This document shows, in pieces, positions 14,964-22,163 of a DNA stretch of 32,000 bases. The notes under the pieces were generated by a model, which worked only from the letters and a program-made list of their open reading frames with translations, was not told where the DNA came from and made no database searches. Positions within the stretch are counted from its first letter, which is position 1. Each line of letters starts with the position of its first letter. The stretch is from Polyangiaceae bacterium (GTDB lineage: Bacteria > Myxococcota_A > Polyangia > Polyangiales > Polyangiaceae), in contig DASQNT010000467.1 in the NCBI GenBank assembly GCA_035644855.1, positions 3,050-35,049 on the forward strand. Direction: 5' to 3'. Made by a program: the position numbers and the translations under genes.

Positions 14964-15130
14964 ATAAGAAGCAATCGCCGGAACGAAACAAAATAAATCG
15001 AACGGTGAATCGAATAAAGAAAGAAGACGAGAGTCAAAGAGAGCGAAACAAACGGGGCGGCGAGATAGACAGACAGAGAGAGATAGAGAGGGTGATATGA
15101 GACGAAAACAGCAGCGCAGAGCGCAAGAAC

Positions 15131-15202
15131 GGGCCCGTAATGTAGTGGAAGCATACTCGCCTTTTAAGCGATGAAGCGGGGGTTCAAGCCCCTCCGGGCC
15201 CA
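15131..15202 (+). tRNA. tRNA-Lys(UUU)
   Basis: Acceptor GGGCCCG/CGGGCCC. D-stem AUGU/GCAU. Anticodon loop CUUUUAA. T-arm GGGGG-UUCAAGC-CCCUC. A73, no CCA. Confidence 0.8.
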
Positions 15203-15210
15203 CGAAATCT

Positions 15211-15282
15211 GGGAGGTTGGCGTCAAGGTGACGCAGCGGATTCTTAATCCGATAGAGGTGGGTTCAATTCCCATGCCTCCCA
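15211..15282 (+). tRNA. tRNA-Lys(CUU)
   Basis: Acceptor GGGAGGU/GCCUCCC. D-stem GCGU/ACGC. Anticodon loop UUCUUAA. T-arm GUGGG-UUCAAUU-CCCAU. A73 followed by CC. Confidence 0.8.
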
Positions 15283-15289
15283 CCGCAGC

Positions 15290-15363
15290 GCCGGGATCGT
15301 CCAATGGCAAGACGGCGGTCTCTGAATCCGCAGATGCAGGTTCGATCCCTGCTCCCGGCTCCA
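15290..15363 (+). tRNA. tRNA-Gln(CUG)
   Basis: Acceptor GCCGGGA/UCCCGGC. Anticodon arm GCGGU-CUCUGAA-UCCGC. T-arm GCAGG-UUCGAUC-CCUGC. U73 plus CCA encoded. Confidence 0.8.
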
Positions 15364-15441
15364 CGCCCGTCAGGGGCAAGCTCTCAACGGAGGGCCGCGG
15401 CTGTTTGACAACTGAATACGACTTGAATGATGAAGTGAGTG

Positions 15442-15468
15442 GGGGACACTCGTGTGTCCCCTTCTTCC
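15442..15468 (+). terminator. GC hairpin plus U-rich tail abutting the next tRNA (terminator-like or processing hairpin)
   Basis: GGGGACAC (15442-15449) pairs with GUGUCCCC (15454-15461), then UUCUUCC, which runs straight into tRNA-Asn at 15466. Confidence 0.35.
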
Positions 15469-15538
15469 AGCGTAGCCAAATGGGAAGGCAGCCGACTGTT
15501 AATCGGCCTATATGGAGGTTCGATTCCTCCCGCTGGAG
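15466..15538 (+). tRNA. tRNA-Asn(GUU)
   Basis: Acceptor UCCAGCG/CGCUGGA with U1-A72 and G73, as in bacterial tRNA-Asn. Anticodon arm GCCGA-CUGUUAA-UCGGC. T-arm GGAGG-UUCGAUU-CCUCC. Confidence 0.85.
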
Positions 15539-15549
15539 CTCATCGAACA

Positions 15550-15570
15550 GGGGGCGCGCAGCCCCCTCTT
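15550..15570 (+). terminator. GC hairpin plus U-rich tail abutting the next tRNA
   Basis: GGGGGC (15550-15555) pairs with GCCCCC (15561-15566), then UCUU. tRNA-Asn copy 2 starts at 15571. Confidence 0.35.
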
Positions 15571-15643
15571 TCTGGCGTCGCCAAATGGTATGGCAGTCGG
15601 CCGTTAACCGACCGTTAGGTGGGTTCGATTCCCCCCGCCAGAG
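15571..15643 (+). tRNA. tRNA-Asn(GUU), C33 variant
   Basis: Acceptor UCUGGCG/CGCCAGA, G73. D-stem GCCA/UGGC. Anticodon arm GUCGG-CCGUUAA-CCGAC. T-loop UUCGAUU, with one mismatch in the T-stem. Confidence 0.7.
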
Positions 15644-15648
15644 CTCAT

Positions 15649-15720
15649 GCCCTCAAAGCTCATAAGGTAGAGCACCTGTCTCGTAAGCAGGGGGTTCCGG
15701 TTCGATTCCGGATGGGGGCT
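15649..15720 (+). tRNA. tRNA-Thr(CGU)
   Basis: Acceptor GCCCUCA/UGGGGGC. D-arm GCUC-AUAAGGUA-GAGC. Anticodon arm CCUGU-CUCGUAA-GCAGG. T-arm UCCGG-UUCGAUU-CCGGA. Confidence 0.8.
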
Positions 15721-15737
15721 CCGCAGGACGTAGATAC

Positions 15738-15810
15738 GGGTCGTGTGCAGGTCTGGTGATTGCGACGGTCTGAAAAGCCGTAGAACTCGGTTCGACTCCG
15801 AGACGACCCA
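15738..15810 (+). tRNA. tRNA-Phe(GAA)
   Basis: Acceptor GGGUCGU/ACGACCC. Anticodon arm ACGGU-CUGAAAA-GCCGU. T-arm CUCGG-UUCGACU-CCGAG. A73 followed by CC. Confidence 0.85.
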
Positions 15811-15812
15811 CC

Positions 15813-15834
15813 GGGAGGGCTGGCCCTCCCTATT
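15813..15834 (+). terminator. GC hairpin plus short U/A tail abutting the next tRNA
   Basis: GGGAGGG (15813-15819) pairs with CCCUCCC (15824-15830), then UAUU. tRNA-Pro starts at 15835. Confidence 0.3.
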
Positions 15835-15907
15835 CGGGATGTAGCCTAGTGGAAAGGCGCCTCATTTGGGGTGAGGAGACTCGTCGGTTCGATTCCGGCC
15901 ATCCCGA
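15835..15907 (+). tRNA. tRNA-Pro(UGG)
   Basis: Acceptor CGGGAUG/CAUCCCG with C1-G72 and A73, typical of bacterial tRNA-Pro. D-arm GCCU-AGUGGAA-AGGC. Anticodon arm CCUCA-UUUGGGG-UGAGG. T-arm GUCGG-UUCGAUU-CCGGC. Confidence 0.85.
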
Positions 15908-15926
15908 CCGCGAGAGCGAAGGTTGT

Positions 15927-16002
15927 GTGGGTGTTACTCGTCTGGTGACGAGGGCAGACTGTGACCCTGCGGAGGCGGGTTCGATTCCCGTACACCCAAC
16001 CA
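15927..16002 (+). tRNA. tRNA-His(GUG) with encoded G-1
   Basis: G at 15927 precedes acceptor UGGGUGU/ACACCCA. D-arm CUCG-UCUGGUGA-CGAG. Anticodon loop CUGUGAC. T-arm GCGGG-UUCGAUU-CCCGU. A73 (not the usual C73) plus CCA encoded. Confidence 0.8.
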
Positions 16003-16130
16003 GGAGCTGCGAGCGGGCATGAGCCCGGGGCGCTCCGATAAACGTTTGAATCGTCCGGCATGGACCGGGCGCGTCGAGGCCAAGAGCCGAGGCGCTCCCT
16101 GCCGCGCCGGGCCGGAGAAAGGAAAGGAAC

Positions 16131-17789
16131 GTGGCCAACTACCTCAAGCACCTCGTTTCGCTCTTCACGCCCCAGGGCGAGAAGGCCCGGAGCGATCAGG
16201 CTCAGAACAACGCGGGCGGGTTCGTATTCGTCCTCGATACGTGGGCGAAGCTCGACCGCTGGCTCATCCTCGGCACCGAGGGCGGGTCGTACTACGCGAC
16301 CGAGCGCCAGATGACGCGCGATAACGCGAAGACGATCCTGGAGTGCCTCGCCGAGGACGGGATCCGGACGGTGACGCGCATCGTCGAGATCAGCGACGCC
16401 GGCCGCGCTCCGAAGAACGAGCCGGCCATCTTCGCCCTCGCGATGGCGGCCGGCGCGGACGACCCGGCCACGCGCAAGGCGGCCCTCGAGGCCCTGCCGA
16501 AGGTCTGCCGCACCGGGACGCACCTCTTCCACTTCGCTCGCGACGTGGAGGGCTTCCGGCGCTGGGGACGCGGCCTCCGGACGGCCGTCGCTGCCTGGTA
16601 CAACGACAAGCCGGCCGACCGGCTCGCCTACCAGGCCGTGAAGTTCCAGCAGCGCGACGGCTTCAGCCACCGCGACCTGCTCCGCCTCGCGCACCCGAAG
16701 GCGCCCACCGCGCAGCACAACGCGATCTACCGCTGGATCGTGGGTGGGCAGGAGGCGTTCGCGAAGGCGCCCCCAAAGGGCGATGTCCTCAAGTACGAGG
16801 ACCTGCCGGCGCTCATCCAGGCGTTCGAGCGGCTGCGCGCCGCGAAGGACGCGAAGGAGGTCGCCGCGCTCGTCCGCGAGCACAGGCTCACGCACGAGAT
16901 GCTCCCGACCGAGTGGAAGAACCATTCGGTCGTATGGGAGGCGCTGCTCCAGGACATGCCGATGACGGCGATGATCCGGAACCTCGCGAAGATGACCAAC
17001 GTCGGCCTCTTGACCCCGATGAGCGACGCGGCCCGCAAGGTCGCCGCCGAGCTTATGGATGAGGGCCGCCTGCGGAAGGCTCGCGTGCACCCGATCGCGC
17101 TCCTGTCGGCGATGAAGGTCTACGAGCAGGGTCGCGGTGTGAAGGGGAGCCTCACGTGGACGCCTGTCCGCGAGATCGTCGACGCGCTCGACAGCGCGTT
17201 CTACCTCGCCTTCAGGGCAATCGAGCCAACGGGCAAGAAGCACCTGCTCGCGCTCGATGTCTCGGGGTCGATGACGTGCGGTGAGATCGCCGGGGTGCCG
17301 GGGCTCACGCCGCGCGTCGCGAGCTCGGCGATGGCGATGGTGACGGCGCGGACGGAGGCGAGCTTCGCGACCATCGCGTTCACGGCGGCGAGCGGCGGGT
17401 ATGGCGGGATGCACGGCGGCGGGACGCCTGGCGTTGCGTCGCTCGACATCTCGCCCCGGCAGCGGCTGGATGATGTCCTGAAGCTGGTGGATAACCTCCC
17501 CTTCGGCGGGACGGACTGCGCGCTGCCGATGGTTTGGGCGACCCGGAACAAGGTCGAGGTGGACACGTTCGTGGTCTACACGGACAACGAGACGTGGGCC
17601 GGCTCGGTGCATCCGTTCCAGGCGCTCCGCGAGTACCGGCAGAAGATGGGCCGGCCGGCGAAGCTCATCGTCGTTGGAATGACGGCGACGGACTTCACCA
17701 TCGCCGACCCGACCGACGCCGGGATGATGGACGTTGTCGGATTCGATACGGCCGCGCCGCAGATCATGGCCGACTTCGCCCGCGCGTAA
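16131..17789 (+). CDS. rsr: Ro60 orthologue (TROVE domain + C-terminal vWA/MIDAS domain)
   Basis: GTG start preceded by GGAGAAAGGAAAGGAAC. The N-terminal sequence (FVFVLDTWAKLDRWLILGTEGGSYYATERQ ... GRAPKNEPAIFALA) is characteristic of TROVE/Ro60. The C-terminal vWA has the MIDAS motif LLALDVSGSM and VVYTDNETW. 552 aa, the usual Ro60 size. Confidence 0.9.
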   Translation: MANYLKHLVSLFTPQGEKARSDQAQNNAGGFVFVLDTWAKLDRWLILGTEGGSYYATERQMTRDNAKTILECLAEDGIRTVTRIVEISDAGRAPKNEPAIFALAMAAGADDPATRKAALEALPKVCRTGTHLFHFARDVEGFRRWGRGLRTAVAAWYNDKPADRLAYQAVKFQQRDGFSHRDLLRLAHPKAPTAQHNAIYRWIVGGQEAFAKAPPKGDVLKYEDLPALIQAFERLRAAKDAKEVAALVREHRLTHEMLPTEWKNHSVVWEALLQDMPMTAMIRNLAKMTNVGLLTPMSDAARKVAAELMDEGRLRKARVHPIALLSAMKVYEQGRGVKGSLTWTPVREIVDALDSAFYLAFRAIEPTGKKHLLALDVSGSMTCGEIAGVPGLTPRVASSAMAMVTARTEASFATIAFTAASGGYGGMHGGGTPGVASLDISPRQRLDDVLKLVDNLPFGGTDCALPMVWATRNKVEVDTFVVYTDNETWAGSVHPFQALREYRQKMGRPAKLIVVGMTATDFTIADPTDAGMMDVVGFDTAAPQIMADFARA

Positions 17790-17831
17790 GAAGGACCAGC
17801 GCGCAGTACAAACAGCGAGCCGGGCGCGCGG

Positions 17832-17864
17832 CGGTCACCCTCCCCAAGAGAAGGAGGGCGGCCG
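17832..17864 (+). terminator. Long GC hairpin downstream of rsr (possible terminator or processing element, no clear U-tract)
   Basis: CGGUCACCCUCC (17832-17843) pairs with GGAGGGCGGCCG (17853-17864) with one mismatch and a 9-nt loop. Confidence 0.3.
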
Positions 17865-17885
17865 CCGCGCCCCGGGGAGCGTTTC

Positions 17886-17979
17886 GCCGGATGCGCCTGA
17901 TTGGAGGCATCTGTCCTCAGATTTTGCCTGGAAGGGCCGCCCGTGGACAGTTATCGAGGTTCAATTCCAACATCCGGCT
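17886..17979 (+). ncRNA. Degenerate tRNA-shaped / Y-RNA-like element (X0)
   Basis: 8-bp terminal stem GCCGGAUG/CAUCCGGC. D-arm GCCU-GAUUGG-AGGC. Where the anticodon arm should be there is a long stem CUGUCC (17911-17916) / GGACAG (17945-17950). It encloses UUUGCC-UGGAAG-GGCCG, a weakened copy of the UUGCCCG/CGGGCCGR helix of elements A-D. Then UUAUC and a T-loop-like GGUUCAAUUCC with a poor stem. Followed by a U-rich tail. Confidence 0.35.
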
Positions 17980-17990
17980 CTCGTTTTATA

Positions 17991-18115
17991 GTGACCGTAG
18001 CTTAACTGGTAGAGCGCTAAAAACACCGTCGCCGCCCCTTGCCCGGATCGGGCCGATGGATGACGGTTATCGACTGTTAATCGAGAAGATGCGGGTTCGA
18101 GTCCCGCCGGTCACG
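17991..18115 (+). ncRNA. tRNA-shaped RNA with Ro60-binding-type hairpin (Y-RNA-like element A)
   Basis: tRNA acceptor GUGACCG/CGGUCAC, D-arm GCUU-AACUGGUA-GAGC and T-arm GCGGG-UUCGAGU-CCCGC, G73. After the D-arm comes a ~45-nt arm with outer stem ACCGUC (18025-30) / GACGGU (18062-67). Its apical helix is UUGCCCG (18039-45) - GAU - CGGGC-C-GA (18049-56), that is G-C pairs, a bulged C, then G.U and A-U. A small hairpin follows, AUCGA-CUGUUAA-UCGAG (18069-85). Confidence 0.65.
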
Positions 18116-18120
18116 CTGTC

Positions 18121-18243
18121 AGGGCTGTAGTTTAATGGTAGAACGACATGCCGTCTTCAAACATTTGCCCGAGCCGGGCCGGATGGAGATGGTTACCGGA
18201 TTTGAAACCCTGGAAGGTGCGGGTTCGACCCCCGCCGGTCCTG
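18121..18243 (+). ncRNA. tRNA-shaped RNA with Ro60-binding-type hairpin (Y-RNA-like element B)
   Basis: Acceptor AGGGCUG/CGGUCCU. D-arm GUUU-AAUGGUA-GAAC. T-arm GCGGG-UUCGACC-CCCGC. G73 followed by ACUUUUUUG. Inserted arm: outer stem GCCGUC (18150-55) / GAUGGU (18188-93). Apical helix UUGCCCG (18165-71) - AGC - CGGGC-C-GG (18175-82). Confidence 0.65.
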
Positions 18244-18251
18244 ACTTTTTT

Positions 18252-18323
18252 GCCCTCGTATGCATCTGGTGAGGCAGCTTGACTGTCGATCAAGTGAGGG
18301 GAGTTCGATCCTCCTCGGGGGCG
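18252..18323 (+). tRNA. tRNA-Asp(GUC)
   Basis: Acceptor GCCCUCG/CGGGGGC. Anticodon arm CUUGA-CUGUCGA-UCAAG. T-arm GGGAG-UUCGAUC-CUCCU. G73. Confidence 0.85.
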
Positions 18324-18330
18324 CCTTATG

Positions 18331-18458
18331 GTGGCTGTAGCTCAATTGGTAGAGCGCTAAAAACGCCGTCGCCGCCCCTTGCCCGGAGACGGGCCGATGG
18401 ATGACGGTTATCGATTTGGATCGAGAGGTTGCGGGTTCGAGCCCCGTCAGTCACCCCA
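18331..18458 (+). ncRNA. tRNA-shaped RNA with Ro60-binding-type hairpin (Y-RNA-like element C, paralog of A, CCA encoded)
   Basis: Acceptor GUGGCUG/CAGUCAC. D-arm GCUC-AAUUGGUA-GAGC. T-arm GCGGG-UUCGAGC-CCCGU. C73 then CCA (18456-58). Inserted arm: GCCGUC (18365-70) / GACGGU (18403-08). Apical helix UUGCCCG (18379-85) - GAGA - CGGGC-C-GA (18390-97). The side hairpin has only a 4-6-nt loop (UCGA-UUUGGA-UCGA). Confidence 0.65.
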
Positions 18459-18459
18459 T

Positions 18460-18480
18460 GACGTATAGCTTAACGAAGTA
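18460..18480 (+). pseudogene. tRNA 5'-fragment (acceptor/D-arm remnant)
   Basis: GACGUAUAGCUUAACGAAGUA resembles the 5' part of elements A/C (..CCGUAGCUUAACUGG..). No downstream arms are present. Confidence 0.3.
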
Positions 18481-18481
18481 T

Positions 18482-18554
18482 GTCCCCGTGTCCGAACGGA
18501 GAAGGAGCTGGTTTCCTAAACCAGTGTGTGCAGGTTCGACTCCTGCCGGGGACG
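18482..18554 (+). tRNA. tRNA-Arg(CCU)
   Basis: Acceptor GUCCCCG/CGGGGAC. D-stem UCCG/AGGA. Anticodon arm CUGGU-UUCCUAA-ACCAG. T-arm GCAGG-UUCGACU-CCUGC. G73. Confidence 0.8.
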
Positions 18555-18558
18555 CCCC

Positions 18559-18679
18559 AGGGCTGTAGTTTAACGGCAGAACATCATACCGTTCTACGAT
18601 CCTTGCCCGACTCGGGCCGGAGCAGAACGGTTATCGGAACCTCACTCCGAAGGTGCGGGTTCGACTCCCGCCGGTCCTG
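18559..18679 (+). ncRNA. tRNA-shaped RNA with Ro60-binding-type hairpin (Y-RNA-like element D, paralog of B)
   Basis: Acceptor AGGGCUG/CGGUCCU. D-arm GUUU-AACGGCA-GAAC. T-arm GCGGG-UUCGACU-CCCGC. G73. Inserted arm: ACCGUUC (18588-94) / GAACGGU (18625-31). Apical helix UUGCCCG (18603-09) - ACU - CGGGC-C-GG (18613-20). Side hairpin UCGGA-ACCUCAC-UCCGA. Confidence 0.65.
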
Positions 18680-18687
18680 GACTTTAT

Positions 18688-18758
18688 GCGCCCGTATGCA
18701 ACTGGTACGCAGCTTGATTGTCGATCAAGTGATGGGAGTTCAATTCTCCTCGGGTGCG
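18688..18758 (+). tRNA. tRNA-Asp(GUC), second copy
   Basis: Acceptor GCGCCCG/CGGGUGC. Anticodon arm CUUGA-UUGUCGA-UCAAG. T-arm GGGAG-UUCAAUU-CUCCU. G73. Confidence 0.8.
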
Positions 18759-18782
18759 CCGGAGCCGAGAGGCTCCACACAT

Positions 18783-18853
18783 AGGATGTAGAGTCATGGT
18801 GACCGCGGAGCCTCCAAAACTCCTGCGAGAGGGTTCGATTCCTTCACATCCTG
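18783..18853 (+). tRNA. tRNA-Trp(CCA)
   Basis: Acceptor AGGAUGU/ACAUCCU with A1-U72 and G73, as in bacterial tRNA-Trp. Anticodon loop CUCCAAA. T-arm GAGGG-UUCGAUU-CCUUC. Short 3-bp D-stem GUC/GAC. Preceded by hairpin GGAGCC-GAGA-GGCUCC (18761-76). Confidence 0.75.
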
Positions 18854-18873
18854 CCGGGTCCGACGAGGACCAT

Positions 18874-18944
18874 GGGGATGTAGTTCAAAGGAAGAACCGC
18901 TGCTTCGCGAGCAGCAGATGCGGGTTCGAGTCCCGCCCTCTCCA
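18874..18944 (+). tRNA. tRNA-Ala(CGC)
   Basis: Acceptor GGGGAUG/CCUCUCC with the G3:U70 alanine identity pair and a U6/C67 mismatch. Anticodon arm GCUGC-UUCGCGA-GCAGC. T-arm GCGGG-UUCGAGU-CCCGC. A73. Confidence 0.8.
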
Positions 18945-18970
18945 CCGCAGCCGTATTGATTGAGTGTTCA

Positions 18971-19041
18971 GGGGATGTAGTTCAAAGGAAGAATCGCCGC
19001 TCGGCATGCGGCAGATGCGGGTTCGAGTCCCGCCTTCTCCA
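18971..19041 (+). tRNA. tRNA-Ala(GGC), C33 variant
   Basis: Acceptor GGGGAUG/CUUCUCC with G3:U70 and a U6/U67 mismatch. Anticodon arm GCCGC-UCGGCAU-GCGGC. T-arm GCGGG-UUCGAGU-CCCGC. A73. Confidence 0.7.
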
Positions 19042-19063
19042 CCGCAGGATTAGTAGGGTTTTC

Positions 19064-19134
19064 GGGGACGTAGCTCAAAGGAAGAGCCGCCGCCTTGCAA
19101 GCGGCAGATGCGGGTTCGAGTCCCGCCTTCTCCA
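19064..19134 (+). tRNA. tRNA-Ala(UGC)
   Basis: Acceptor GGGGACG/CUUCUCC with G3:U70 and a C6/U67 mismatch. Anticodon arm GCCGC-CUUGCAA-GCGGC. T-arm GCGGG-UUCGAGU-CCCGC. A73. Confidence 0.8.
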
Positions 19135-19139
19135 CCGAC

Positions 19140-19212
19140 GCCACCCAGGCCCAGGAGGCGGGGCACCTGTTTGGTACACAGGAGACGGCGGGTTCGATTC
19201 CCGCGGGTGGCT
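19140..19212 (+). tRNA. tRNA-Thr(GGU)
   Basis: Acceptor GCCACCC/GGGUGGC. D-stem GCCC/GGGC. Anticodon arm CCUGU-UUGGUAC-ACAGG. T-arm GCGGG-UUCGAUU-CCCGC. Confidence 0.85.
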
Positions 19213-19226
19213 CTACGTAAACGTTC

Positions 19227-19300
19227 GCGGGCATCGTCCAACGGTAGGACCTGAGTCTTCCAAACTCATTGTGCGGGTTCGACTCCCGCTGTCCGCTCCA
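19227..19300 (+). tRNA. tRNA-Gly(UCC)
   Basis: Acceptor GCGGGCA/UGUCCGC. Anticodon arm UGAGU-CUUCCAA-ACUCA. T-arm GCGGG-UUCGACU-CCCGC. U73 plus CCA encoded. Confidence 0.9.
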
Positions 19301-19319
19301 GGCAGCAGCAGTAATTTTT

Positions 19320-19390
19320 GCGGTGGTAGTTCAACGGTAGAATTCGAGGATGCCAGCCTTGAGATCCGGGTTCGATTCCCGGTCACCGCA
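19320..19390 (+). tRNA. tRNA-Gly(GCC)
   Basis: Acceptor GCGGUGG/UCACCGC. Anticodon arm CGAGG-AUGCCAG-CCUUG. T-arm CCGGG-UUCGAUU-CCCGG. A73 followed by CC. Confidence 0.8.
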
Positions 19391-19401
19391 CCGTTCTTAT
19401 T

Positions 19402-19473
19402 GAGCCGGTTCTCTGGCGAGGTGCTCGCTCTGCAAAAGCGGGCGTGAGGGTTCAATTCCCTCCCGGCTCTCCA
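19402..19473 (+). tRNA. tRNA-Cys(GCA)
   Basis: Acceptor GAGCCGG/CCGGCUC. Anticodon arm UCGCU-CUGCAAA-AGCGG. T-arm GAGGG-UUCAAUU-CCCUC. U73 (Cys identity) plus CCA encoded. Compact D-arm. Confidence 0.75.
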
Positions 19474-19474
19474 C

Positions 19475-19547
19475 GCCTCGGTAGCATAACGGAGAGTGCA
19501 GGCGGCTTCTACCCGCCAATGTGGGGGTTCGACTCCCTCCCGGGGCG
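19475..19547 (+). tRNA. tRNA-Arg(UCU)
   Basis: Acceptor GCCUCGG/CCGGGGC. D-arm GCAU-AACGGAGA-GUGC. Anticodon arm GGCGG-CUUCUAC-CCGCC. T-arm GGGGG-UUCGACU-CCCUC. Starts 1 nt after the CCA of tRNA-Cys. Confidence 0.8.
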
Positions 19548-19575
19548 CCTTGATAAATGACTTAAACAAATAGAA

Positions 19576-19615
19576 TCTCACCTCGGAAACGCGGGTTCGA
19601 ATCCCGCTGAGGACG
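19576..19615 (+). pseudogene. Orphan 3' half of a tRNA-Glu-like gene
   Basis: UCUCACCUCGGAAAC-GCGGG-UUCGAAU-CCCGC-UGAGGAC-G parallels the 3' half of tRNA-Glu at 19629-19704. It is preceded by AT-rich sequence, and no matching GUCCUCA 5' strand lies nearby. Confidence 0.5.
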
Positions 19616-19628
19616 CCGACGCACATCT

Positions 19629-19704
19629 GTCCCCATCCTTGCTAGCTGGTTCAGGCAGCCGGGCCCTCATCCCGGAAACGCGGGTTCGAATCCCGCTGGG
19701 GACG
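19629..19704 (+). tRNA. tRNA-Glu(CUC), C33 variant
   Basis: Acceptor GUCCCCA/UGGGGAC with G73 (Glu-like). D-stem CUUG/CAGG. Anticodon arm CCGGG-CCCUCAU-CCCGG. T-arm GCGGG-UUCGAAU-CCCGC. Three nt instead of one lie between the D and anticodon stems. Confidence 0.7.
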
Positions 19705-19708
19705 CTAA

Positions 19709-19783
19709 GGTACGCGACGGGTTTCAACACGCACAGCTCGAGCCATCCGAAAGGATGTGTGCGCGCCTTATCCGCCGCGTACC
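19709..19783 (+). ncRNA. Unclassified tRNA-sized structured element
   Basis: 8-bp terminal stem GGUACGCG (19709-16) / CGCGUACC (19776-83). An internal coaxial hairpin CGCACA..CAUCC-GAAA-GGAUG-UGUGCG carries an 8-nt bulge GCUCGAGC. There is no canonical T-loop or anticodon arm. Confidence 0.3.
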
Positions 19784-19791
19784 GCAAATCT

Positions 19792-19866
19792 CTCCCTGTC
19801 TCGGCGGTATCCGAGCACCGGTCTACGAAATCGGTTGTCTCCGTTCAACTCGGAGCAGGGAGGCCA
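19792..19866 (+). tRNA. tRNA-Arg(ACG), atypical D-arm
   Basis: Acceptor CUCCCUG/CAGGGAG. Possible 5-bp D-stem CUCGG/CCGAG. 6-bp anticodon stem ACCGGU/AUCGGU with loop CUACGAA. T-arm CUCCG-UUCAACU-CGGAG. G73 plus CCA encoded. Confidence 0.65.
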
Positions 19867-19869
19867 AGC

Positions 19870-19940
19870 GCCTTTGTTCTGGCGGCACCAGAGGCAAGCC
19901 TCCGAAGCTTGCTATCCGGGTTCAACTCCCGGCAAAGGCT
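19870..19940 (+). tRNA. tRNA-Arg(CCG), extended anticodon stem
   Basis: Acceptor GCCUUUG/CAAAGGC. D-arm CUGG-CGGCA-CCAG. 7-bp anticodon stem GGCAAGC/GCUUGCU with loop CUCCGAA. T-arm CCGGG-UUCAACU-CCCGG. Confidence 0.65.
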
Positions 19941-19946
19941 TGTAAA

Positions 19947-20018
19947 CGCGATGGCTCAGGGTGAGAGGCGGCCCTCATAAGGCTGTCCGTGAGGGTTCGA
20001 TTCCCTCCGTCGCGACCA
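19947..20018 (+). tRNA. tRNA-Met(CAU) (elongator or Ile2-type; not initiator-like)
   Basis: Acceptor CGCGAUG/CGUCGCG. Very compact D-arm (CUC-AGGGUGA-GAG). Anticodon arm CGGCC-CUCAUAA-GGCUG, which lacks the three consecutive G-C pairs of initiators. T-arm GAGGG-UUCGAUU-CCCUC. A73 plus CCA encoded. Confidence 0.6.
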
Positions 20019-20019
20019 T

Positions 20020-20097
20020 CGAGGTGTGGCTCAATCTGGTTAGAGCACCGCGTTCGGGACGCGGGGACTGCCGGTTCGAATCCGGCCACCTCGACCA
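20020..20097 (+). tRNA. tRNA-Pro(CGG)
   Basis: Acceptor CGAGGUG/CACCUCG with C1-G72 and A73. D-arm GCUC-AAUCUGGUUA-GAGC. Anticodon arm CCGCG-UUCGGGA-CGCGG. T-arm GCCGG-UUCGAAU-CCGGC. CCA encoded. Starts 1 nt after the previous CCA. Confidence 0.9.
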
Positions 20098-20117
20098 TCT
20101 CTCCAAAAAACATTTTC

Positions 20118-20194
20118 GCGGGGCGAGCCAGCTGGAGACGGCGCCTGGCCTACACCCAGGTCTCGCATGGGTTCGATTCCCTGGCCCCGTACCA
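20118..20194 (+). tRNA. tRNA-Val(UAC), C33 variant
   Basis: Acceptor GCGGGGC/GCCCCGU (G1.U72). D-arm GCCA-GCUGGAGA-CGGC. Anticodon arm CCUGG-CCUACAC-CCAGG. T-loop UUCGAUU with a weak T-stem. A73 plus CCA encoded. Confidence 0.65.
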
Positions 20195-20227
20195 TCCGGA
20201 GCGGATGTACTCGTCGCCCCGGCGGGA

Positions 20228-20299
20228 GGACCACAAGATCTGGTCGATCTGCGGCGTCTTATAAGCGCCTGCGGCGGGGTCCGATTCCCCGGTGGTCCA
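20228..20299 (+). tRNA. tRNA-Ile(UAU)-like, non-canonical T-loop
   Basis: Acceptor GGACCAC/GUGGUCC. D-arm GAUC-UGGUC-GAUC. Anticodon arm GGCGU-CUUAUAA-GCGCC. T-arm CGGGG-UCCGAUU-CCCCG, with C where U55 is expected. A73 followed by CC. Confidence 0.55.
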
Positions 20300-20346
20300 C
20301 CGGAGATAGAGAGAGGTATTGAGGAGCAATTCGGCTGAAGAATTCA

Positions 20347-20422
20347 GGGGTAGGACGGTACGGTTTACCTGGGCTCTCTGATACGGAGCCCGGCCCGTGT
20401 TCGACTCACGGCTACCCCACCA
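20347..20422 (+). tRNA. tRNA-Ile(GAU)
   Basis: Acceptor GGGGUAG/CUACCCC. Anticodon arm GCUCU-CUGAUAC-GGAGC. T-arm CCGUG-UUCGACU-CACGG. A73 plus CCA encoded. Confidence 0.8.
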
Positions 20423-20423
20423 C

Positions 20424-20498
20424 GCGGAGCTCGCTCTCTGGGAGAGCACCGGCTCGACAAGCCGGGCCAGGTGGGTTCGATTCCCGCGCTCCGTACCA
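20424..20498 (+). tRNA. tRNA-Val(GAC), C33 variant
   Basis: Acceptor GCGGAGC/GCUCCGU (G1.U72). D-arm GCUC-UCUGGGA-GAGC. Anticodon arm CCGGC-UCGACAA-GCCGG. T-arm GUGGG-UUCGAUU-CCCGC. A73 plus CCA encoded. 1-nt spacer on each side. Confidence 0.7.
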
Positions 20499-20499
20499 T

Positions 20500-20583
20500 G
20501 TCCAGGTGGCGGAATGGCATACGCGACGGTCTCAGAAACCGGCCCTTCGGGGTATGAGGGTTCGAGTCCCTCTCTGGACACCA
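20500..20583 (+). tRNA. tRNA-Leu(CAG), type II
   Basis: Acceptor GUCCAGG/UCUGGAC. D-arm GCGG-AAUGGCAUA-CGCG. Anticodon loop CUCAGAA. Variable arm CCC-UUCG-GGG. T-arm GAGGG-UUCGAGU-CCCUC. A73 plus CCA encoded. Confidence 0.85.
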
Positions 20584-20608
20584 TTGCTTAACTTCATGAT
20601 TGATACAT

Positions 20609-20691
20609 GCCACCGTGGCGGAATGGCATACGCGACAGGCTGAGAACCTGTGCTCCCACGGAGTATGAGGGTTCGACTCCCTCCGGTGGTA
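20609..20691 (+). tRNA. tRNA-Leu(GAG), type II
   Basis: Acceptor GCCACCG/CGGUGGU (G1.U72). Same D-arm as the Leu(CAG) gene. Anticodon arm ACAGG-CUGAGAA-CCUGU. Variable arm CUCC-CA-CGGAG-like. T-arm GAGGG-UUCGACU-CCCUC. A73 followed by CC. Confidence 0.8.
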
Positions 20692-20717
20692 CCTCGTAGT
20701 ATCCACAAAAAGACCAG

Positions 20718-20750
20718 AGCCCCGGCGCCGCCGGGAGCTATCATTTCTTA
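20718..20750 (+). terminator. Terminator-like hairpin after the second tRNA block
   Basis: AGC-CCCGGC (20718-26) pairs with GCCGGG-(A)-GCU (20730-39), followed by AUCAUUUCUUA. Confidence 0.4.
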
Positions 20751-20811
20751 CGCAGCTTGATCCGCGCCGGGAGGCGACAATGAAGAAGAAGAGGCGAAGG
20801 TGAGGTGAACC

Positions 20812-21333
20812 ATGTCCGCGCGAACGCTCCTTTTGACCCCCTGGATGATGCCGCACAAGATCATCTCGTGGCAGGACGCCGTCACGATGATGTTCCTCAA
20901 CAAGGTGGAAGTGCTCGAGGCCTACGACGAGGAGATCGTCTCGCCGTCGCTGGCGATCCGCATGCCCGCCGTGGTCCGGCTCAAGAGGTCCGCGAGCAAC
21001 ACGAAGCGCGGCGTTAAGTTCAGCCGCATCAACGTCTTTACCCGCGACGGGTTCCGCTGCCAGTACTGCGGCGACAAGAAGCGGATGGGCGAGCTCAACT
21101 ACGACCACGTGATCCCCCGTATGCAGGGAGGAAAGACGGTCTGGGAGAACATCGTGACGGCGTGCTACCCCTGCAACAACAAGAAGAGGGGCCGCACGCC
21201 CGAGCAGGCTGGGATGACGCTCCTCTCGCGACCAATCAAGCCGAAGTCGCTGCCGCTCACGCCGGCGCTCCTCGACCTCCGGACGATCCCGCCCGCGTGG
21301 TCAGGATACTGCGCGTCGATCGGCGCCGCGTAA
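20812..21333 (+). CDS. HNH endonuclease
   Basis: RBS GAAGGUGAGGUG about 5 nt upstream of the ATG. HNH/zinc motif DGFRCQYCG...NYDHVIPRMQGGKTVWENIVTACYPCNNKK. 173 aa. Confidence 0.9.
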   Translation: MSARTLLLTPWMMPHKIISWQDAVTMMFLNKVEVLEAYDEEIVSPSLAIRMPAVVRLKRSASNTKRGVKFSRINVFTRDGFRCQYCGDKKRMGELNYDHVIPRMQGGKTVWENIVTACYPCNNKKRGRTPEQAGMTLLSRPIKPKSLPLTPALLDLRTIPPAWSGYCASIGAA

Positions 21334-21373
21334 GAACCAACCTACGTCATTGATCAAAAAATGAGCGCCTCGG

Positions 21374-21403
21374 GCGCGCTCGCTCGGTGCTGAGCGAGCG
21401 CGC
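21374..21403 (+). other. Perfect 12-bp inverted repeat downstream of the HNH gene
   Basis: GCGCGCUCGCUC (21374-85), a 6-nt loop, then GAGCGAGCGCGC (21392-403). An A-tract precedes it, and no U-tract follows. Confidence 0.5.
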
Positions 21404-21417
21404 TCGGGCCCTCGCCT

Positions 21418-21492
21418 CGGGGTGTAGCTTAGCCAGGCAAAAGCGCGTGACTGGGGGTCACGAGATCGCTGGTTCAATTCCAGTCACCCCGA
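21418..21492 (+). tRNA. tRNA-Pro(GGG)
   Basis: Acceptor CGGGGUG/CACCCCG with C1-G72 and A73. Anticodon arm CGUGA-CUGGGGG-UCACG. T-arm GCUGG-UUCAAUU-CCAGU. Confidence 0.8.
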
Positions 21493-21511
21493 CCGGGTTT
21501 TAGCAGTTCAA

Positions 21512-21599
21512 GGAAGCGAAGCCGGCGAGGCGCCGGGCCCGCCTGGAAAGCGGTGCGCACCCATTCTCCGGGTGTGGGATTCGAGTTCTCTCGCTTCCG
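21512..21599 (+). tRNA. tRNA-Ser(GGA), type II
   Basis: Acceptor GGAAGCG/CGCUUCC with G73 (Ser-like). D-stem GCC/GGC. Anticodon stem CCGC/GCGG with loop CUGGAAA. Variable arm CACCC-AUUCUCC-GGGUG. Weak T-arm UGGGA-UUCGAGU-UCUCU. Confidence 0.7.
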
Positions 21600-21611
21600 C
21601 CGAGCACAGAA

Positions 21612-21694
21612 GGAGAGCAAACCGGCCCGGGGCCGGCGCCGTCTTGAAAACGGATGGACGGGCGACCGTTGGGGTTCGACACCTCTGTTCTCCG
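21612..21694 (+). tRNA. tRNA-Ser(UGA), type II
   Basis: Acceptor GGAGAGC/GUUCUCC, G73. Anticodon stem CCGU/ACGG with loop CUUGAAA. Variable arm ACGG-GCGA-CCGU. T-loop UUCGACA. Confidence 0.75.
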
Positions 21695-21708
21695 CAGCTC
21701 ACGATTCT

Positions 21709-21793
21709 GGAAGGTGAATCGGCCAGGGGCCGAGCCTGTTTCGAAAGCAGTGCGATGTCAGACGGCATTGGGGATCGAGACCTCCGCCTTCCG
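21709..21793 (+). tRNA. tRNA-Ser(CGA), type II, atypical T-loop
   Basis: Acceptor GGAAGGU/GCCUUCC, G73. Anticodon stem CUGU/GCAG with loop UUCGAAA. Long variable arm. T-loop AUCGAGA, with A at position 54. Confidence 0.65.
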
Positions 21794-21825
21794 CCGGTCA
21801 ACGAGAAGTACCAAAACAAACGTAC

Positions 21826-21899
21826 GCGGTGATGGTAGAGCGGTAGAATCTGAGAGTCCCATCCTCAGGATCCGGGTTCGATCCCCGGTCGCCGCACCA
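21826..21899 (+). tRNA. tRNA-Gly(CCC)
   Basis: Acceptor GCGGUGA/UCGCCGC. D-arm GUAG-AGCGGUA-GAAU. Anticodon loop GUCCCAU with stem UGAGA/CCUCA (1 mismatch). T-arm CCGGG-UUCGAUC-CCCGG. A73 plus CCA encoded. Confidence 0.75.
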
Positions 21900-22157: not shown

Positions 22158-22163
22158 ACAACC

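What the first reader, a model, noticed from the sequence alone, without database searches (positions are those of the whole stretch)
17886..18679. tRNA-shaped RNAs carrying a Ro60-binding-type helix right after rsr: topologically inverted Y RNAs?
Seen: four elements (A 17991-18115, B 18121-18243, C 18331-18458, D 18559-18679) plus a degenerate fifth (17886-17979) have normal tRNA acceptor, D and T arms. After the D-arm each carries a 40-50-nt arm. This arm has an outer 6-7-bp stem (ACCGUC/GACGGU type) and an apical helix 5'-UUGCCCG-loop-CGGGC-C-GA(or GG)-3'. That apical helix consists of four or five G-C pairs, a bulged C, then G.U and A-U (or two G.U).

Established: the conserved Ro60 site of metazoan Y RNAs is 5'-GGUC-C-GA paired to UU-GACC-3', with the same bulged C followed by G.U and A-U. 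The only difference here is a compensated U-A to G-C change.

Inference: these are Ro60 ligands. They differ from described bacterial YrlA RNAs, whose tRNA-like domain has a closed acceptor stem while the RNA ends sit in the Ro-binding stem. Here the Ro helix is capped by a 3-4-nt loop and the tRNA acceptor end is free. Element C even encodes CCA. The small hairpin 3' of the arm looks like either a leftover anticodon arm or a type-II-like variable arm. Its loop is CUGUUAA in A, identical to the Asn anticodon loop, but degenerate in C and D.
Basis: partly seen in the sequence, partly recalled or inferred. Interest (0 to 1): 0.92.

Follow-up and report, generated by a model that had tools for sequence, protein, structure and literature searches.

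The report
Y RNAs wired like real tRNAs
Right after a bacterial Ro60 (rsr) gene sit four to five small RNA genes that are relatives of the known tRNA-mimicking Y RNA "YrlA" but are wired the other way round, with a free tRNA-type end and the Ro60-binding helix closed into a hairpin. The same unreported wiring recurs next to Ro60 genes in many phage-like contigs, cyanobacteria and myxobacteria.

Summary
Elements A-D, plus a degenerate E0, lie 97-890 nt downstream of a TROVE+vWA Ro60 gene, in register with genuine tRNAs of a 37-tRNA array. Each has a 7-bp acceptor stem, YrlA-type D and T arms, the GGUUAYC junction and small V hairpin of YrlA, and a 47-52-nt two-tier arm in the anticodon position. 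The tip of that arm is UUGCCCG-loop-CGGGC-C-GR. Circularly permuting the canonical YrlA of Gordonia phage Boopy in silico aligns it end to end with element C (86% identity). A covariance model found more than 90 such elements. In 59 Ro60-linked ones, all 7 acceptor pairs covary (100% paired) and all 6 pairs of the apical helix show changes on both sides (94% paired). The tip is always closed by a 3-8-nt loop, often GNRA. The Levitt pair covaries in 85 of 93. They lie on the rsr strand in viral contigs, cyanobacteria and Kofleriaceae. Cultured actinophages and CcrColossus have the canonical wiring. I found no description of this topology in the papers I could read. It is a new variant of a known kind.

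The parts
16131..17789 (+). rsr / Ro60 orthologue (552 aa; TROVE ring + vWA domain), the presumed protein partner
   Evidence: Pfam PF25045 3.1e-64 and PF05731 6.7e-48. 60.6% identical to the Ro60 of a Kofleriaceae MAG and 68% to a viral contig.
17820..17875 (+). very stable G+C-rich hairpin between the rsr stop codon and E0; no U tract and no Ro motif (possibly a processing or stability element)
   Evidence: Fold of 17790-17890: -59.1 kcal/mol, z = -4.6, 0 of 200 shuffles as stable. No + strand terminator was predicted anywhere in 15000-22100.
17886..17979 (+). E0: shortened tRNA-topology element. It has an 8-bp acceptor, a D arm, an outer stem CUGUCC/GGACAG and the tip UUGCCU-GGAA-GGGCCGC. 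It has no V hairpin and only a 2-bp T stem. Its motif variant GGGCCGCCCG is shared with the first element after rsr in related loci.
   Evidence: Fold. GGCCG..GTTATC signature. Same variant motif in L001 3532-3660, L130, L147 and L148. It scores below the reporting threshold with both models.
17991..18115 (+). Element A: tRNA-topology YrlA-like RNA. Acceptor GUGACCG/CGGUCAC, discriminator G, V loop CUGUUAA.
   Evidence: R1 133 bits and R2 117 bits. Fold.
18039..18056 (+). Tip hairpin of A with the Ro60-type site: UUGCCCG-GAU-CGGGC-C-GA (five G-C pairs, bulged C, G.U, A-U)
   Evidence: Pattern match. Covariation of the homologous helix.
18121..18243 (+). Element B: acceptor AGGGCUG/CGGUCCU, 9-bp outer stem, tip at 18165-18182 UUGCCCG-AGC-CGGGC-C-GG
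   Evidence: Rfam tRNA 39.6 bits with a 65-nt insert. R2 79.5 bits..
18252..18325 (+). ordinary tRNA-Asp(GUC) between B and C. Its presence rules out a canonical YrlA spanning B and C.
   Evidence: ARAGORN; Rfam tRNA 44.3 bits.
18331..18458 (+). Element C: acceptor GUGGCUG/CAGUCAC, discriminator C, encoded CCA at 18456-18458, tip at 18379-18397 UUGCCCG-GAGA-CGGGC-C-GA (GNRA loop)
   Evidence: R1 125.7 bits and R2 105.6 bits. 86% identity to permuted Boopy YrlA. CCA.
18481..18557 (+). ordinary tRNA-Arg(CCU) between C and D
   Evidence: ARAGORN; Rfam tRNA 60.4 bits.
18559..18679 (+). Element D: acceptor AGGGCUG/CGGUCCU, 8-bp outer stem ACCGUUCU/AGAACGGU, tip at 18603-18620 UUGCCCG-ACU-CGGGC-C-GG, V hairpin 5 bp + 7 nt
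   Evidence: Rfam tRNA 41.0 bits. R2 82.9 bits. The MFE equals the centroid cloverleaf-like fold, z = -2.1.
18688..18760 (+). ordinary tRNA-Asp(GUC) after D. B+Asp and D+Asp look like one duplicated block.
   Evidence: ARAGORN; Rfam tRNA 54.3 bits.

Best explanation
A-D (and probably E0) are genes for Y RNAs of the YrlA family in which the chain is connected as in a real tRNA.

They are transcribed on the + strand with rsr and the surrounding tRNA array. They are cut out like tRNAs: RNase P at the 5' end of a 7-bp acceptor stem, and 3' trimming plus CCA (encoded in C, added elsewhere). The result is RNAs of about 121-128 nt that fold into a tRNA L-shape.

Where the anticodon arm should be, they carry a long two-tier hairpin. 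Its distal helix (UUGCCCG / CGGGC-C-GR, with a bulged C followed by G.U and A-U or G.U) is the Ro60/Rsr docking site. The small hairpin after GGUUAYC is the V arm of YrlA.

The RNP therefore has the same geometry as a canonical YrlA-Rsr complex: the Ro60 ring at the 'anticodon' end, and the conserved D/T elbow free for an effector such as PNPase or a tRNA-binding or repair enzyme. It differs in having no RNA termini at the Ro60 side and a tRNA-like CCA end at the far side.

Shown here by computation: the gene anatomy, the structure with covariation, homology to canonical YrlA by circular permutation, and linkage to rsr.

Inferred: co-transcription, RNase P and CCA processing, Rsr binding and effector tethering. 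The precedent for processing is that M. smegmatis YrlA, with a 7-bp acceptor-like stem, is cut by RNase P and receives CCA in vivo (PMC4201824).
For: Structure. Rfam's tRNA model spans B, C and D with a 63-65-nt insert, and single-sequence folds agree.

Acceptor stem. In 81 distinct homologues, 79 have a perfect 7/7 acceptor stem, with very diverse sequences.

Covariation in 59 Ro60-linked elements:
- 95.3% of cells are paired, against 69.7% in shuffles (0 of 500 shuffles reach the observed value) and 37-49% when the partner is slid.
- Acceptor: 7 of 7 pairs covary, 100% paired.
- Outer stem: 6 of 6 pairs covary.
- Tip helix: 6 of 6 pairs have changes on both sides, 94.4% paired (G-C 42 / A-U 9; C-G 46 / U-A 9; C-G 29 / U-A 17). 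The two pairs beyond the bulge are U-A/U.G in 49 of 59 and U.G/G-C/C-G in 55 of 59.

Tip loop. It is 3-8 nt in 89 of 89 parsed elements. 53 are tetraloops, of which 34 are GNRA and 6 are UUCG or CUUG.

tRNA tertiary signature in 93 elements: U8 in 90, A14 in 92, GG in the D loop in 92, and a Levitt pair of G15:C48 (62) or A15:U48 (23).

Homology to YrlA. Permuted Boopy YrlA against element C gives 98 of 114 positions identical. In the unpermuted order only one half aligns. BLAST finds 84.7% identity over 57 nt. The Rfam YrlA model matches across the A/B junction, that is, in the canonical order.

Linkage to rsr. Every long hit lies on the rsr strand within 3-6 kb in viral Ro60 loci. It is adjacent to rsr in 6 of 6 evaluable bacterial loci (cyanobacteria and Kofleriaceae). 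A rule-based scan independent of the model finds the tRNA topology in 43 of 121 Ro60 loci, against 16 with canonical modules only.

Same site in neighbours. Linear hairpin Y RNAs with GGGCCGAAG...UUGCCC sit in the same clusters.

Array context. Spacers to neighbouring tRNAs are 1-22 nt, like tRNA-tRNA spacers. CCA follows the discriminator in 10 of 81 elements, against about 1.3 expected.
Against: - There are no expression, end-mapping or binding data.
- A-D do not match the published consensus GNCGAAN0-1G exactly (GCCGAUG in A and C; GCCGGAU and GCCGGAG in B and D).
- The Rfam YrlA model scores only 25 bits (gathering score 69). Bona fide canonical phage YrlAs also fail it, at 30-52 bits.
- Single-sequence fold z-scores are modest (-0.6 to -2.1).
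- The fold of the A+B dimer prefers cross-unit pairing, at an ensemble frequency of 0.002, so thermodynamics alone cannot fix the register.
- My covariation alignments were fitted to the model. The acceptor count and the Levitt count are taken at fixed offsets from the element boundaries, but those boundaries were themselves set by the model.
- A conserved unpaired CUAAAAAC stretch between the D stem and the long arm has no place in a standard tRNA fold.
Confidence: 0.8

Rival explanations
1. They are ordinary (canonical) YrlA RNAs read in the wrong register. On this view the real RNA would start at CGGGCCGA in one unit, run through the V arm, T arm and acceptor 3' strand, cross the spacer into the next unit's acceptor 5' strand and D arm, and end at UUGCCCG. 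The ends would then lie in the Ro stem and the acceptor-like stem would be closed.
For: The Rfam YrlA model aligns in exactly this way across the A/B junction (18049-18174, 25.4 bits, E = 0.006). A's 3' acceptor strand can form 5 pairs with B's 5' strand. Tandem canonical YrlAs do exist, in CcrColossus, Cashline and A3Wally.
Against: - B-C and C-D are separated by complete tRNA-Asp and tRNA-Arg genes, and D has no downstream partner.
- The two strands of the Ro helix are joined by only 3-4 nt, so the RNA would have to be cut inside that loop.
- Each unit's own acceptor strands pair 7/7, while cross-unit pairing gives at most 5/7. Unit-specific acceptor sequences likewise pair within units in Iningainema and Nostoc.
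- In Leptolyngbyaceae, two alternating unit types (GGGCGGG and GGAGUAG) make the cross-unit stem impossible.
- 79 of 81 elements have 7/7 acceptors, most of them not in tandem.
- GNRA and UUCG tetraloops are strongly enriched at the tip.
Confidence: 0.04
2. They are tRNA genes disabled by, or carrying, an inserted sequence (pseudogenes, or intron-like inserts that are removed). The resemblance of the insert to a Ro60 site would then be incidental.
For: With the long arm removed, A would read as a plausible tRNA-Asn(GUU). Many homologues have 7-nt anticodon-like loops in the small hairpin (CUUAUAA, CUCAUAA, AUGCAAA). Rfam's tRNA model reaches its gathering score on B, C and D.
Against: - The insert is the most constrained part outside the elbow. 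Its two helices covary and its CGR and UU(G/A) motifs are conserved across phage-like contigs, cyanobacteria and myxobacteria.
- The elements sit next to rsr on its strand.
- B and C lack a usable anticodon loop, and D lacks U33.
- The 'insert' plus its flanks is homologous to canonical YrlA, which is known to be bound by Rsr in Salmonella and M. smegmatis (PMC4201824).
- No bacterial machinery is known that excises a 50-nt hairpin at the position between nucleotides 26 and 27.
Confidence: 0.04
3. They are tRNA mimics whose main job does not depend on Ro60. Candidates are decoys or sensors for tRNA-targeting nucleases, or cofactors of RNA-repair systems, like the predicted Band-7-associated tRNA. 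Alternatively they are chargeable RNAs that act through the CCA end, with Ro60 binding secondary or absent.
For: The acceptor stem, discriminator and sometimes CCA are kept. The elbow is tRNA-perfect. Wang et al. 2018 (bioRxiv 10.1101/312249) report that an authentic-looking 'b7a-tRNA' is sometimes encoded next to Rsr. An NCLDV-like subgroup of the same architecture has no Ro60 gene in the stored flanks.
Against: The element-specific conserved feature is the Ro-type helix, not an anticodon. Linkage to rsr is very tight in bacteria and phage-like contigs. The window has no RtcB or Band-7 gene among the proteins scanned. This rival is partly compatible with the main explanation, since an effector could act through the tRNA body.
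Confidence: 0.1

Closest known systems
YrlA (bacterial tRNA-like Y RNA; Rfam RF02553; Chen et al. 2014, PMC4201824; structure in Wang et al. 2018, bioRxiv 10.1101/312249)
   Same: - Encoded beside rsr on the same strand.
- Same D-arm and T-arm sequences, U8/A14/G18G19, and a covarying Levitt pair.
- YUAY (GGUUAYC) at the start of a V hairpin.
- GNCGA-type Ro motif opposite UUG.
- Ro-binding stem emerging from the anticodon-stem position.
- Direct sequence homology (86% to Gordonia phage YrlA after permutation).
   Different: The chain connectivity is circularly permuted. Here the order is 5'-acceptor, D, Ro hairpin, V, T, acceptor-3', with open acceptor ends and a capped Ro helix. Described YrlAs are 5'-Ro strand, V, T, closed acceptor-like stem, D, Ro strand-3'. 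The acceptor stem is always 7 bp with a discriminator (and sometimes CCA), rather than of variable length. The elements sit as units inside a tRNA array.
RNase P-cleaved, CCA-tailed M. smegmatis YrlA (Chen et al. 2014)
   Same: A YrlA with a 7-bp acceptor stem whose acceptor end is opened by RNase P and receives CCA. This shows that tRNA-processing enzymes accept this scaffold and that Rsr still binds it.
   Different: In M. smegmatis the result is a two-piece RNA, with the Ro stem ends also open, made from a canonical precursor. Here a single chain is predicted, with the Ro helix covalently closed.
Metazoan and Deinococcus Y RNAs (Rfam RF00019; Ro60-Y RNA structure of Stein et al. 2005 as cited in PMC4201824)
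   Same: A bulged helix of the GGUC-C-GA / UU-GACC type. Here it is CGGGC-C-GA / UU-GCCCG. Some homologues (L019, L023) carry UUGACC.
   Different: Those RNAs have no tRNA domain in metazoa, and the helix is formed by the RNA termini. No Rfam Y_RNA match was found, even at E <= 10.
Circularly permuted tRNA genes of Cyanidioschyzon and some archaea, and permuted tmRNA
   Same: These are precedents that tRNA-shaped RNAs exist in two circular permutations related by tandem duplication.
   Different: Those are processed back to normal tRNAs or to two-piece tmRNAs. Here both permutations appear to be end products of one Y RNA family.
[quoted passage not shown] 2018)
   Same: A tRNA-shaped ncRNA of normal topology that is occasionally encoded next to Rsr or RNA-repair genes.
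   Different: It is described as closely resembling an authentic tRNA, and the text I could read mentions no Ro-binding arm. The original paper was not available, so overlap with the present class cannot be excluded.

Membership tests
YrlA (RF02553) | Encoded within about 4 kb of the Ro60 orthologue, on the same strand | tested here: met
   E0-D start 97-770 nt after the rsr stop codon, on the + strand. The same holds in all homologous loci that contain rsr.
YrlA (RF02553) | tRNA-like module: near-invariant D and T arms, tRNA tertiary nucleotides, covarying Levitt pair, YUAY at the start of the V region | tested here: met
   GUAGCUCAAUUGGUAGAGC and GCGGGUUCGAGNCCCG(C/U) in the window elements. 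A15:U48 in A-D. In the family, G15:C48 occurs 62 times and A15:U48 23 times out of 93. GGUUAUC or GGUUACC is present in all five elements.
YrlA (RF02553) | Ro60-binding motif GNCGAAN0-1G near the helix that binds Rsr | tested here: inconclusive
   A and C have GCCGAUG; B and D have GCCGGAU and GCCGGAG (5 of 6 positions of GNCGAA). Homologues L013, L248, L255 and L258 have exact GCCGAAG. The bulged helix itself is conserved and covaries.
YrlA (RF02553) | Topology: RNA termini in the Ro-binding stem; T arm 5' of D arm; acceptor-like stem closed by a loop | tested here: not met
   The order is D, Ro hairpin (3-4-nt loop), V, T. The acceptor is formed by the unit's two ends. Intervening tRNAs exclude the canonical register.
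YrlA (RF02553) | Reaches the Rfam gathering score (69 bits) | tested here: not met
   The best match is 25.4 bits and lies across the A/B junction. As calibration, canonical phage YrlAs also fall short: Boopy 52.1, CcrColossus 42.3 and Colt 33.2 bits.
YrlA (RF02553) | Bound by Rsr in vivo | not testable with these tools
   Requires co-immunoprecipitation or EMSA.
tRNA (RF00005) | Cloverleaf with 7-bp acceptor, D and T arms; reaches the Rfam gathering score (29 bits) | tested here: met
   B 39.6, C 42.6 and D 41.0 bits, all full length. For A, only a partial sub-match at 32.7 bits.
tRNA (RF00005) | 5-bp anticodon stem with a 7-nt loop (U33, purine 37) directly after N26; decodable anticodon | tested here: not met
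   The position is occupied by 8-9 unpaired nt plus a 47-52-nt arm. The small downstream hairpin has a 7-nt loop only in A and D, and D lacks U33. ARAGORN does not call the elements.
Metazoan-type Y RNA (RF00019) | Terminal stem with GGUCCGA/UUGACC; match to the Rfam model | tested here: not met
   No RF00019 match at E <= 10 in 17780-18780. Only the local helix motif is shared.
b7a-tRNA (Burroughs & Aravind 2016) | Authentic-looking tRNA next to Band-7 and RtcB genes | not tested
No Band-7 or RtcB domain was found among the 10 window proteins scanned.

The most novel reading that the evidence does not exclude
The tRNA-wired form may be the ancestral Y RNA of bacteria: a tRNA whose anticodon arm grew a Ro60-binding hairpin. 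The textbook 'permuted' YrlA would then arise from tandem copies by permutation-by-duplication. The A/B junction of this window, which the Rfam YrlA model already matches, would be a living intermediate. This would replace or refine the current 'dimeric tRNA' origin model.

A corollary is that these RNPs carry a genuine CCA end. That end could be charged or recognised by tRNA enzymes, giving Ro60 a tRNA 'handle'.

The same design has spread to giant viruses of eukaryotes, where tRNA-shaped RNAs have a eukaryotic-initiator-type T loop and a GUCCGAA hairpin. There it might mimic host Y RNAs.
Probability: 0.3. Interest if true: 0.88.

Novelty: new variant of a known kind. Interest (0 to 1): 0.78.

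Why it matters
Y RNAs are the obligate partners of Ro60, a conserved RNA-surveillance protein and human autoantigen. Why the commonest bacterial Y RNA mimics a tRNA is an open question.

A second, tRNA-wired connectivity of the same RNA, apparently common next to rsr in cyanobacteria, myxobacteria and many uncultured phage-like contigs, has several consequences:

- Free ends at the Ro60 site are not needed.
- The permuted order of YrlA is not essential to its function.
- The tRNA body can carry a real acceptor end.

This gives direct experiments. Does Rsr bind a capped helix? Are these RNAs cut by RNase P, CCA-tailed or charged? Are they stable without Rsr, unlike canonical Y RNAs?

It also supplies a concrete evolutionary path between tRNA and Y RNA. 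On the practical side, these genes are currently missed or mis-annotated. Rfam's YrlA model does not find them, and in Gordonia phage Boopy the canonical relative is annotated as tRNA-Leu (overlapping the preceding tRNA-Gln).

Tried and rejected
- **Rfam search of the region at E <= 10.** Only tRNA matches and sub-threshold YrlA matches appeared, with no Y_RNA match. I did not take the failure at the gathering score as evidence against YrlA kinship, because known canonical phage YrlAs also fail it.
- **Folding the A+B dimer to choose the register.** The MFE used cross-unit pairs at an ensemble frequency of 0.002. I rejected this as uninformative.
- **Phage origin of the window.** DNA search against GenBank phages found only about 64% nucleotide identity over rsr. 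The flanking genes are cellular, so I dropped the phage assumption for the window itself.
- **Search for a cultured phage with the tRNA topology.** Colt, Boopy, Cashline, A3Wally and CcrColossus all turned out canonical. Stanimal, Belfort, BONAISHI and Phabba gave no long hit.
- **Literature.** I found no paper describing this topology in four full-text searches. Burroughs & Aravind 2016, Sim & Wolin 2018 and the 2020 Annual Review were not held. The supplements of Chen 2014 were not held either. Prior mention therefore cannot be fully excluded.
- **Intron or pseudogene reading.** Considered and rejected; see the rival explanations.
- **MAFFT alignment of the five elements.** It mis-registered the tip helix, so I did not use it for pair counts. 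I used a hand-specified structure on an 8-sequence alignment to seed the model instead.
Full report
**1. What is in the window**

ORF 16131-17789 (+) is a Ro60/Rsr orthologue, with vWA_Ro60 at 3e-64 and TROVE at 7e-48. It lies inside a + strand array of 37 tRNA genes. No + strand terminator-like site is predicted between 15000 and 22100.

The genes flanking the array are cellular: gamma-glutamyltranspeptidase, OmpA, a short-chain dehydrogenase, PMT_2, methyltransferases and a MopE-motif protein. The contig is a 39.8-kb metagenome assembly. Its Ro60 is 60.6% identical to that of a Kofleriaceae MAG, where rsr also sits among tRNA genes with one element of the same kind downstream. The window is therefore most likely a bacterial, possibly myxobacterial, chromosome fragment rather than a phage.

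**2.

After a very stable G+C-rich hairpin (17820-17875, z = -4.6) come E0 (17886-17979), A (17991-18115), B (18121-18243), tRNA-Asp, C (18331-18455, plus CCA at 18456-18458), tRNA-Arg, D (18559-18679) and tRNA-Asp.

The tip motif TTGCCCG-N3-5-CGGGCCGR occurs four times against 0.01 expected. GGCCG-N5-16-GTTAYC occurs five times against 0.39 expected, exactly at the five elements.

Single-sequence folds give a 7-bp acceptor stem, a D arm, a two-tier long arm, a small hairpin and a T arm. Rfam's tRNA model spans B, C and D end to end with a 63-65-nt insert at the anticodon. ARAGORN does not call them. Spacers to the neighbouring genes are 1-22 nt, like those between tRNAs in the array. E0 has the acceptor, D arm and long arm but only a vestigial T arm and no small hairpin.

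**3. They are YrlA relatives with the opposite connectivity**

Chen et al. 2014 (PMC4201824) define YrlA by four things:
- a GNCGAAN0-1G motif near the 5' end, in the Ro-binding stem;
- a V stem-loop that begins with a conserved YUAY;
- near-invariant T and D arms separated by a closed acceptor-like stem;
- tRNA tertiary pairs, including a covarying Levitt pair.

Wang et al. 2018 (bioRxiv 10.1101/312249) describe YrlA as resembling a circularly permuted tRNA with a closed acceptor stem.

The window elements contain every module: GCCGAUG, GCCGGAU or GCCGGAG; GGUUAUC or GGUUACC followed by a small hairpin; GCGGGUUCGAGNCCCG(C/U); and GUAGCUCAAUUGGUAGAGC. They occur in the order acceptor-5', D, [outer stem, tip helix, loop, tip helix, outer stem], V, T, acceptor-3'.

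The Rfam YrlA model matches only across the A/B junction (3' half of A plus 5' half of B; 25.4 bits against a gathering score of 69). That is the canonical order. The low score is not informative, because bona fide canonical phage YrlAs also score only 30-52 bits.

The direct test was this. Gordonia phage Boopy has a canonical YrlA: Ro 5' strand, V, T, CCAGG-UUCG-CCUGG, D, Ro 3' strand. I cut it in the acceptor loop and joined its ends in silico. The permuted sequence aligns with element C over its whole length, with 98 of 114 positions identical (86%). A, B and D give 75-80%. In the native order only one half aligns.

**4. The same wiring is widespread and covaries**

I built a covariance model from the four window elements plus four elements found next to Ro60 genes in IMG/VR contigs, then rebuilt it from 42 hits. 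The rebuilt model separates long tRNA-shaped elements (64.7 bits or more) from ordinary tRNAs (62.5 bits or less).

Hits came from three sources:
- Ro60-anchored viral loci;
- a DNA-pattern scan that constrained only the D arm and GGTTAYC;
- bacterial genomes, namely the cyanobacteria Leptolyngbyaceae, Iningainema, Nostoc, Cyanothece and Pseudanabaena, and the myxobacterial Kofleriaceae.

Measured at fixed offsets from the model-defined element ends, 79 of 81 distinct viral-set elements have a perfect 7/7 acceptor stem, with very diverse sequences.

In 59 elements from loci that also encode Ro60:
- 95.3% of pair cells are standard pairs, against 69.7% in column shuffles (0 of 500 reach the observed value) and 37-49% when the 3' partner is slid.
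- All 7 acceptor pairs covary (100% paired), and all 6 outer-stem pairs covary.
- The tip helix is 94.4% paired, with compensatory changes at every pair (G-C 42 / A-U 9; C-G 46 / U-A 9; C-G 29 / U-A 17).
- The two pairs beyond the bulge are U-A/U.G in 49 of 59 and U.G/G-C/C-G in 55 of 59.

The tip is closed by 3-8 nt in 89 of 89 parsed elements. 53 are tetraloops, of which 34 are GNRA and 6 are UUCG or CUUG. That pattern argues for a true hairpin.

The tRNA core is intact in 93 elements: U8 in 90, A14 in 92, GG in the D loop in 92, and G15:C48 (62) or A15:U48 (23).

Caveat: the alignments behind searches are fitted to the model. The counts are read at fixed offsets rather than from alignment columns, but they use the element boundaries the model set. 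The loop count comes from single-sequence folds.

**5. Linkage to Ro60**

In the viral loci, which are oriented on rsr, every long hit lies on the rsr strand within the 3-6 kb flanks. In the bacterial set, the elements abut rsr on the same strand in all six loci long enough to judge.

A rule-based scan that does not use the model looks for a T arm preceded by a CG motif and YUAY, and then asks which strand closes the acceptor. It finds the tRNA topology in 43 of 121 Ro60-bearing loci and canonical modules only in 16. These loci were not de-duplicated.

In several clusters the tRNA-shaped element sits beside linear hairpin Y RNAs with the same site, GGGCCGAAG...UUGCCC.

The cultured phages I checked are all canonical: mycobacteriophage Colt, Gordonia phages Boopy and Cashline, Microbacterium phage A3Wally and Caulobacter phage CcrColossus. 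In CcrColossus and Cashline this is confirmed by unit-specific pairing of the Ro stems.

**6. Why the register is the tRNA one**

- Complete tRNA genes separate B from C and C from D, and D has no partner downstream.
- The Ro strands are only 3-4 nt apart.
- Each unit's own acceptor strands pair 7/7, while cross-unit pairs give at most 5/7.
- In Leptolyngbyaceae, two unit types with unrelated acceptor sequences alternate, which makes a cross-unit stem impossible.

Folding the A+B dimer did not help. It chose cross-unit pairs at an ensemble frequency of 0.002.

**7. Likely mechanism**

Inferred steps are marked as such.

- The elements are co-transcribed with rsr and the tRNA array (inferred from strand, spacing and the absence of terminators).
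- They are released by RNase P and 3' processing, and they carry CCA. CCA is encoded in C and in 10 of 81 homologues, against about 1.3 expected. Elsewhere it would be added. This step is inferred. The precedent is M. smegmatis YrlA, which has a 7-bp acceptor-like stem, is cut by RNase P and is CCA-tailed in vivo while bound to Rsr (PMC4201824).
- Rsr docks on the tip helix (inferred from motif identity and linkage).
- The L-shaped body, whose elbow is the most conserved part, presents a tRNA-like surface to an effector (inferred). For YrlA and Yrn1 the literature proposes PNPase or a tRNA-binding or RNA-repair factor.

The geometry equals that of canonical YrlA-Rsr. The differences are a covalently closed Ro site and a free acceptor end. 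This predicts that stability depends less on Rsr, and that charging is possible.

**8. Novelty**

I found no description of this connectivity in four full-text searches. The published view is that YrlA has a closed acceptor stem and arose from a dimeric tRNA transcript. Three key sources could not be read: Burroughs & Aravind 2016 on a tRNA-like 'b7a-tRNA' sometimes found next to Rsr, Sim & Wolin 2018, and the 2020 review. The supplements of Chen 2014 were also unavailable. I therefore rate the finding as a new variant of a known kind, with some residual risk of prior mention.

**9. Verdict**

Interest is high for the Ro60/Y RNA and tRNA-mimicry fields. Wet-lab end mapping and Rsr binding assays are still needed.

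Noticed in passing
L037, L053, L055, L060, L066, L074, L081, L082, L084, L087, L098, L100, L120, L131 (e.g. L055 4299-4428 and 4798-4927): Giant-virus-like contigs carry 127-132-nt tRNA-shaped RNAs of the same five-arm design inside tRNA arrays. Their proteins include a PolB with an intein, a ubiquitin hydrolase, WD40, RNR and phospholipase B. The RNAs have a eukaryotic-initiator-type T loop (AUCGAAA), an anticodon-like small hairpin (CUUAUAA or CUCAUAA), and a tip GACUU-GCAA-AAGUC followed by CCGAA, which is close to the metazoan GGUCCGA. No Ro60 gene lies in the stored flanks. They might mimic host Y RNAs.
   Followed up: partly
L248 3999-4531 (minus strand): A Leptolyngbyaceae genome has four tandem elements upstream of rsr, of two alternating types. 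In type II the Ro hairpin follows the D arm directly. The strand GAACGAAGG pairs with a downstream strand CCUUUGUUC around the V hairpin. This would be a third connectivity of the same modules.
   Followed up: no
window 17820-17875: An extremely stable G+C-rich hairpin lies between the rsr stop codon and E0 (-59 kcal/mol for 17790-17890, z = -4.6). It has no U tract and no Ro motif. Its function is unknown; it may be a processing or stability element.
   Followed up: partly
L225 3478-3566 (Gordonia phage Boopy, MK894436.1 88742-88830): The 5' part (Ro-binding strand to the acceptor-like hairpin) of this phage's canonical YrlA (about L225 3497-3626) is annotated in GenBank as tRNA-Leu (3478-3566). 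That feature also overlaps the genuine tRNA-Gln (3422-3493) by 16 nt. In sister genomes (Forza, Sixama) the matching stretch carries no annotation.
   Followed up: yes
window 17991-18760: A resembles C, and B resembles D (B and D have identical acceptor stems). B and D are each followed by a tRNA-Asp(GUC). The cluster therefore looks like the product of a recent segmental duplication.
   Followed up: no
window 17886-17979; L001 3532-3660; L130 6159-6739; L147 4793-5126; L148 4765-4882: The first element after rsr carries a conserved variant site, GGGCCGC(C/U)..GAG, with C in place of the A of CGA. E0 may therefore represent a distinct paralogue lineage rather than plain decay, although its T arm is degenerate in this window.
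   Followed up: partly
window A and C (18016-18024, 18356-18364); L225 3594-3602; many homologues: An unpaired run CUAAAA(A)C between the D stem and the long arm is conserved in both topologies. A normal tRNA fold has no place for it, since only N26 sits at that position.
   Followed up: no
L349 1-656 (Microbacterium phage A3Wally): A band-7-like membrane protein gene lies about 3 kb upstream of the Ro-like gene and its canonical YrlAs. This echoes the Band-7/Rsr association reported by others.
   Followed up: no
window 15131-22342: A 37-gene tRNA array lies in what appears to be a bacterial chromosome, with rsr and the Y RNA genes embedded in it. The Kofleriaceae MAG L263 shows the same arrangement.
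   Followed up: partly
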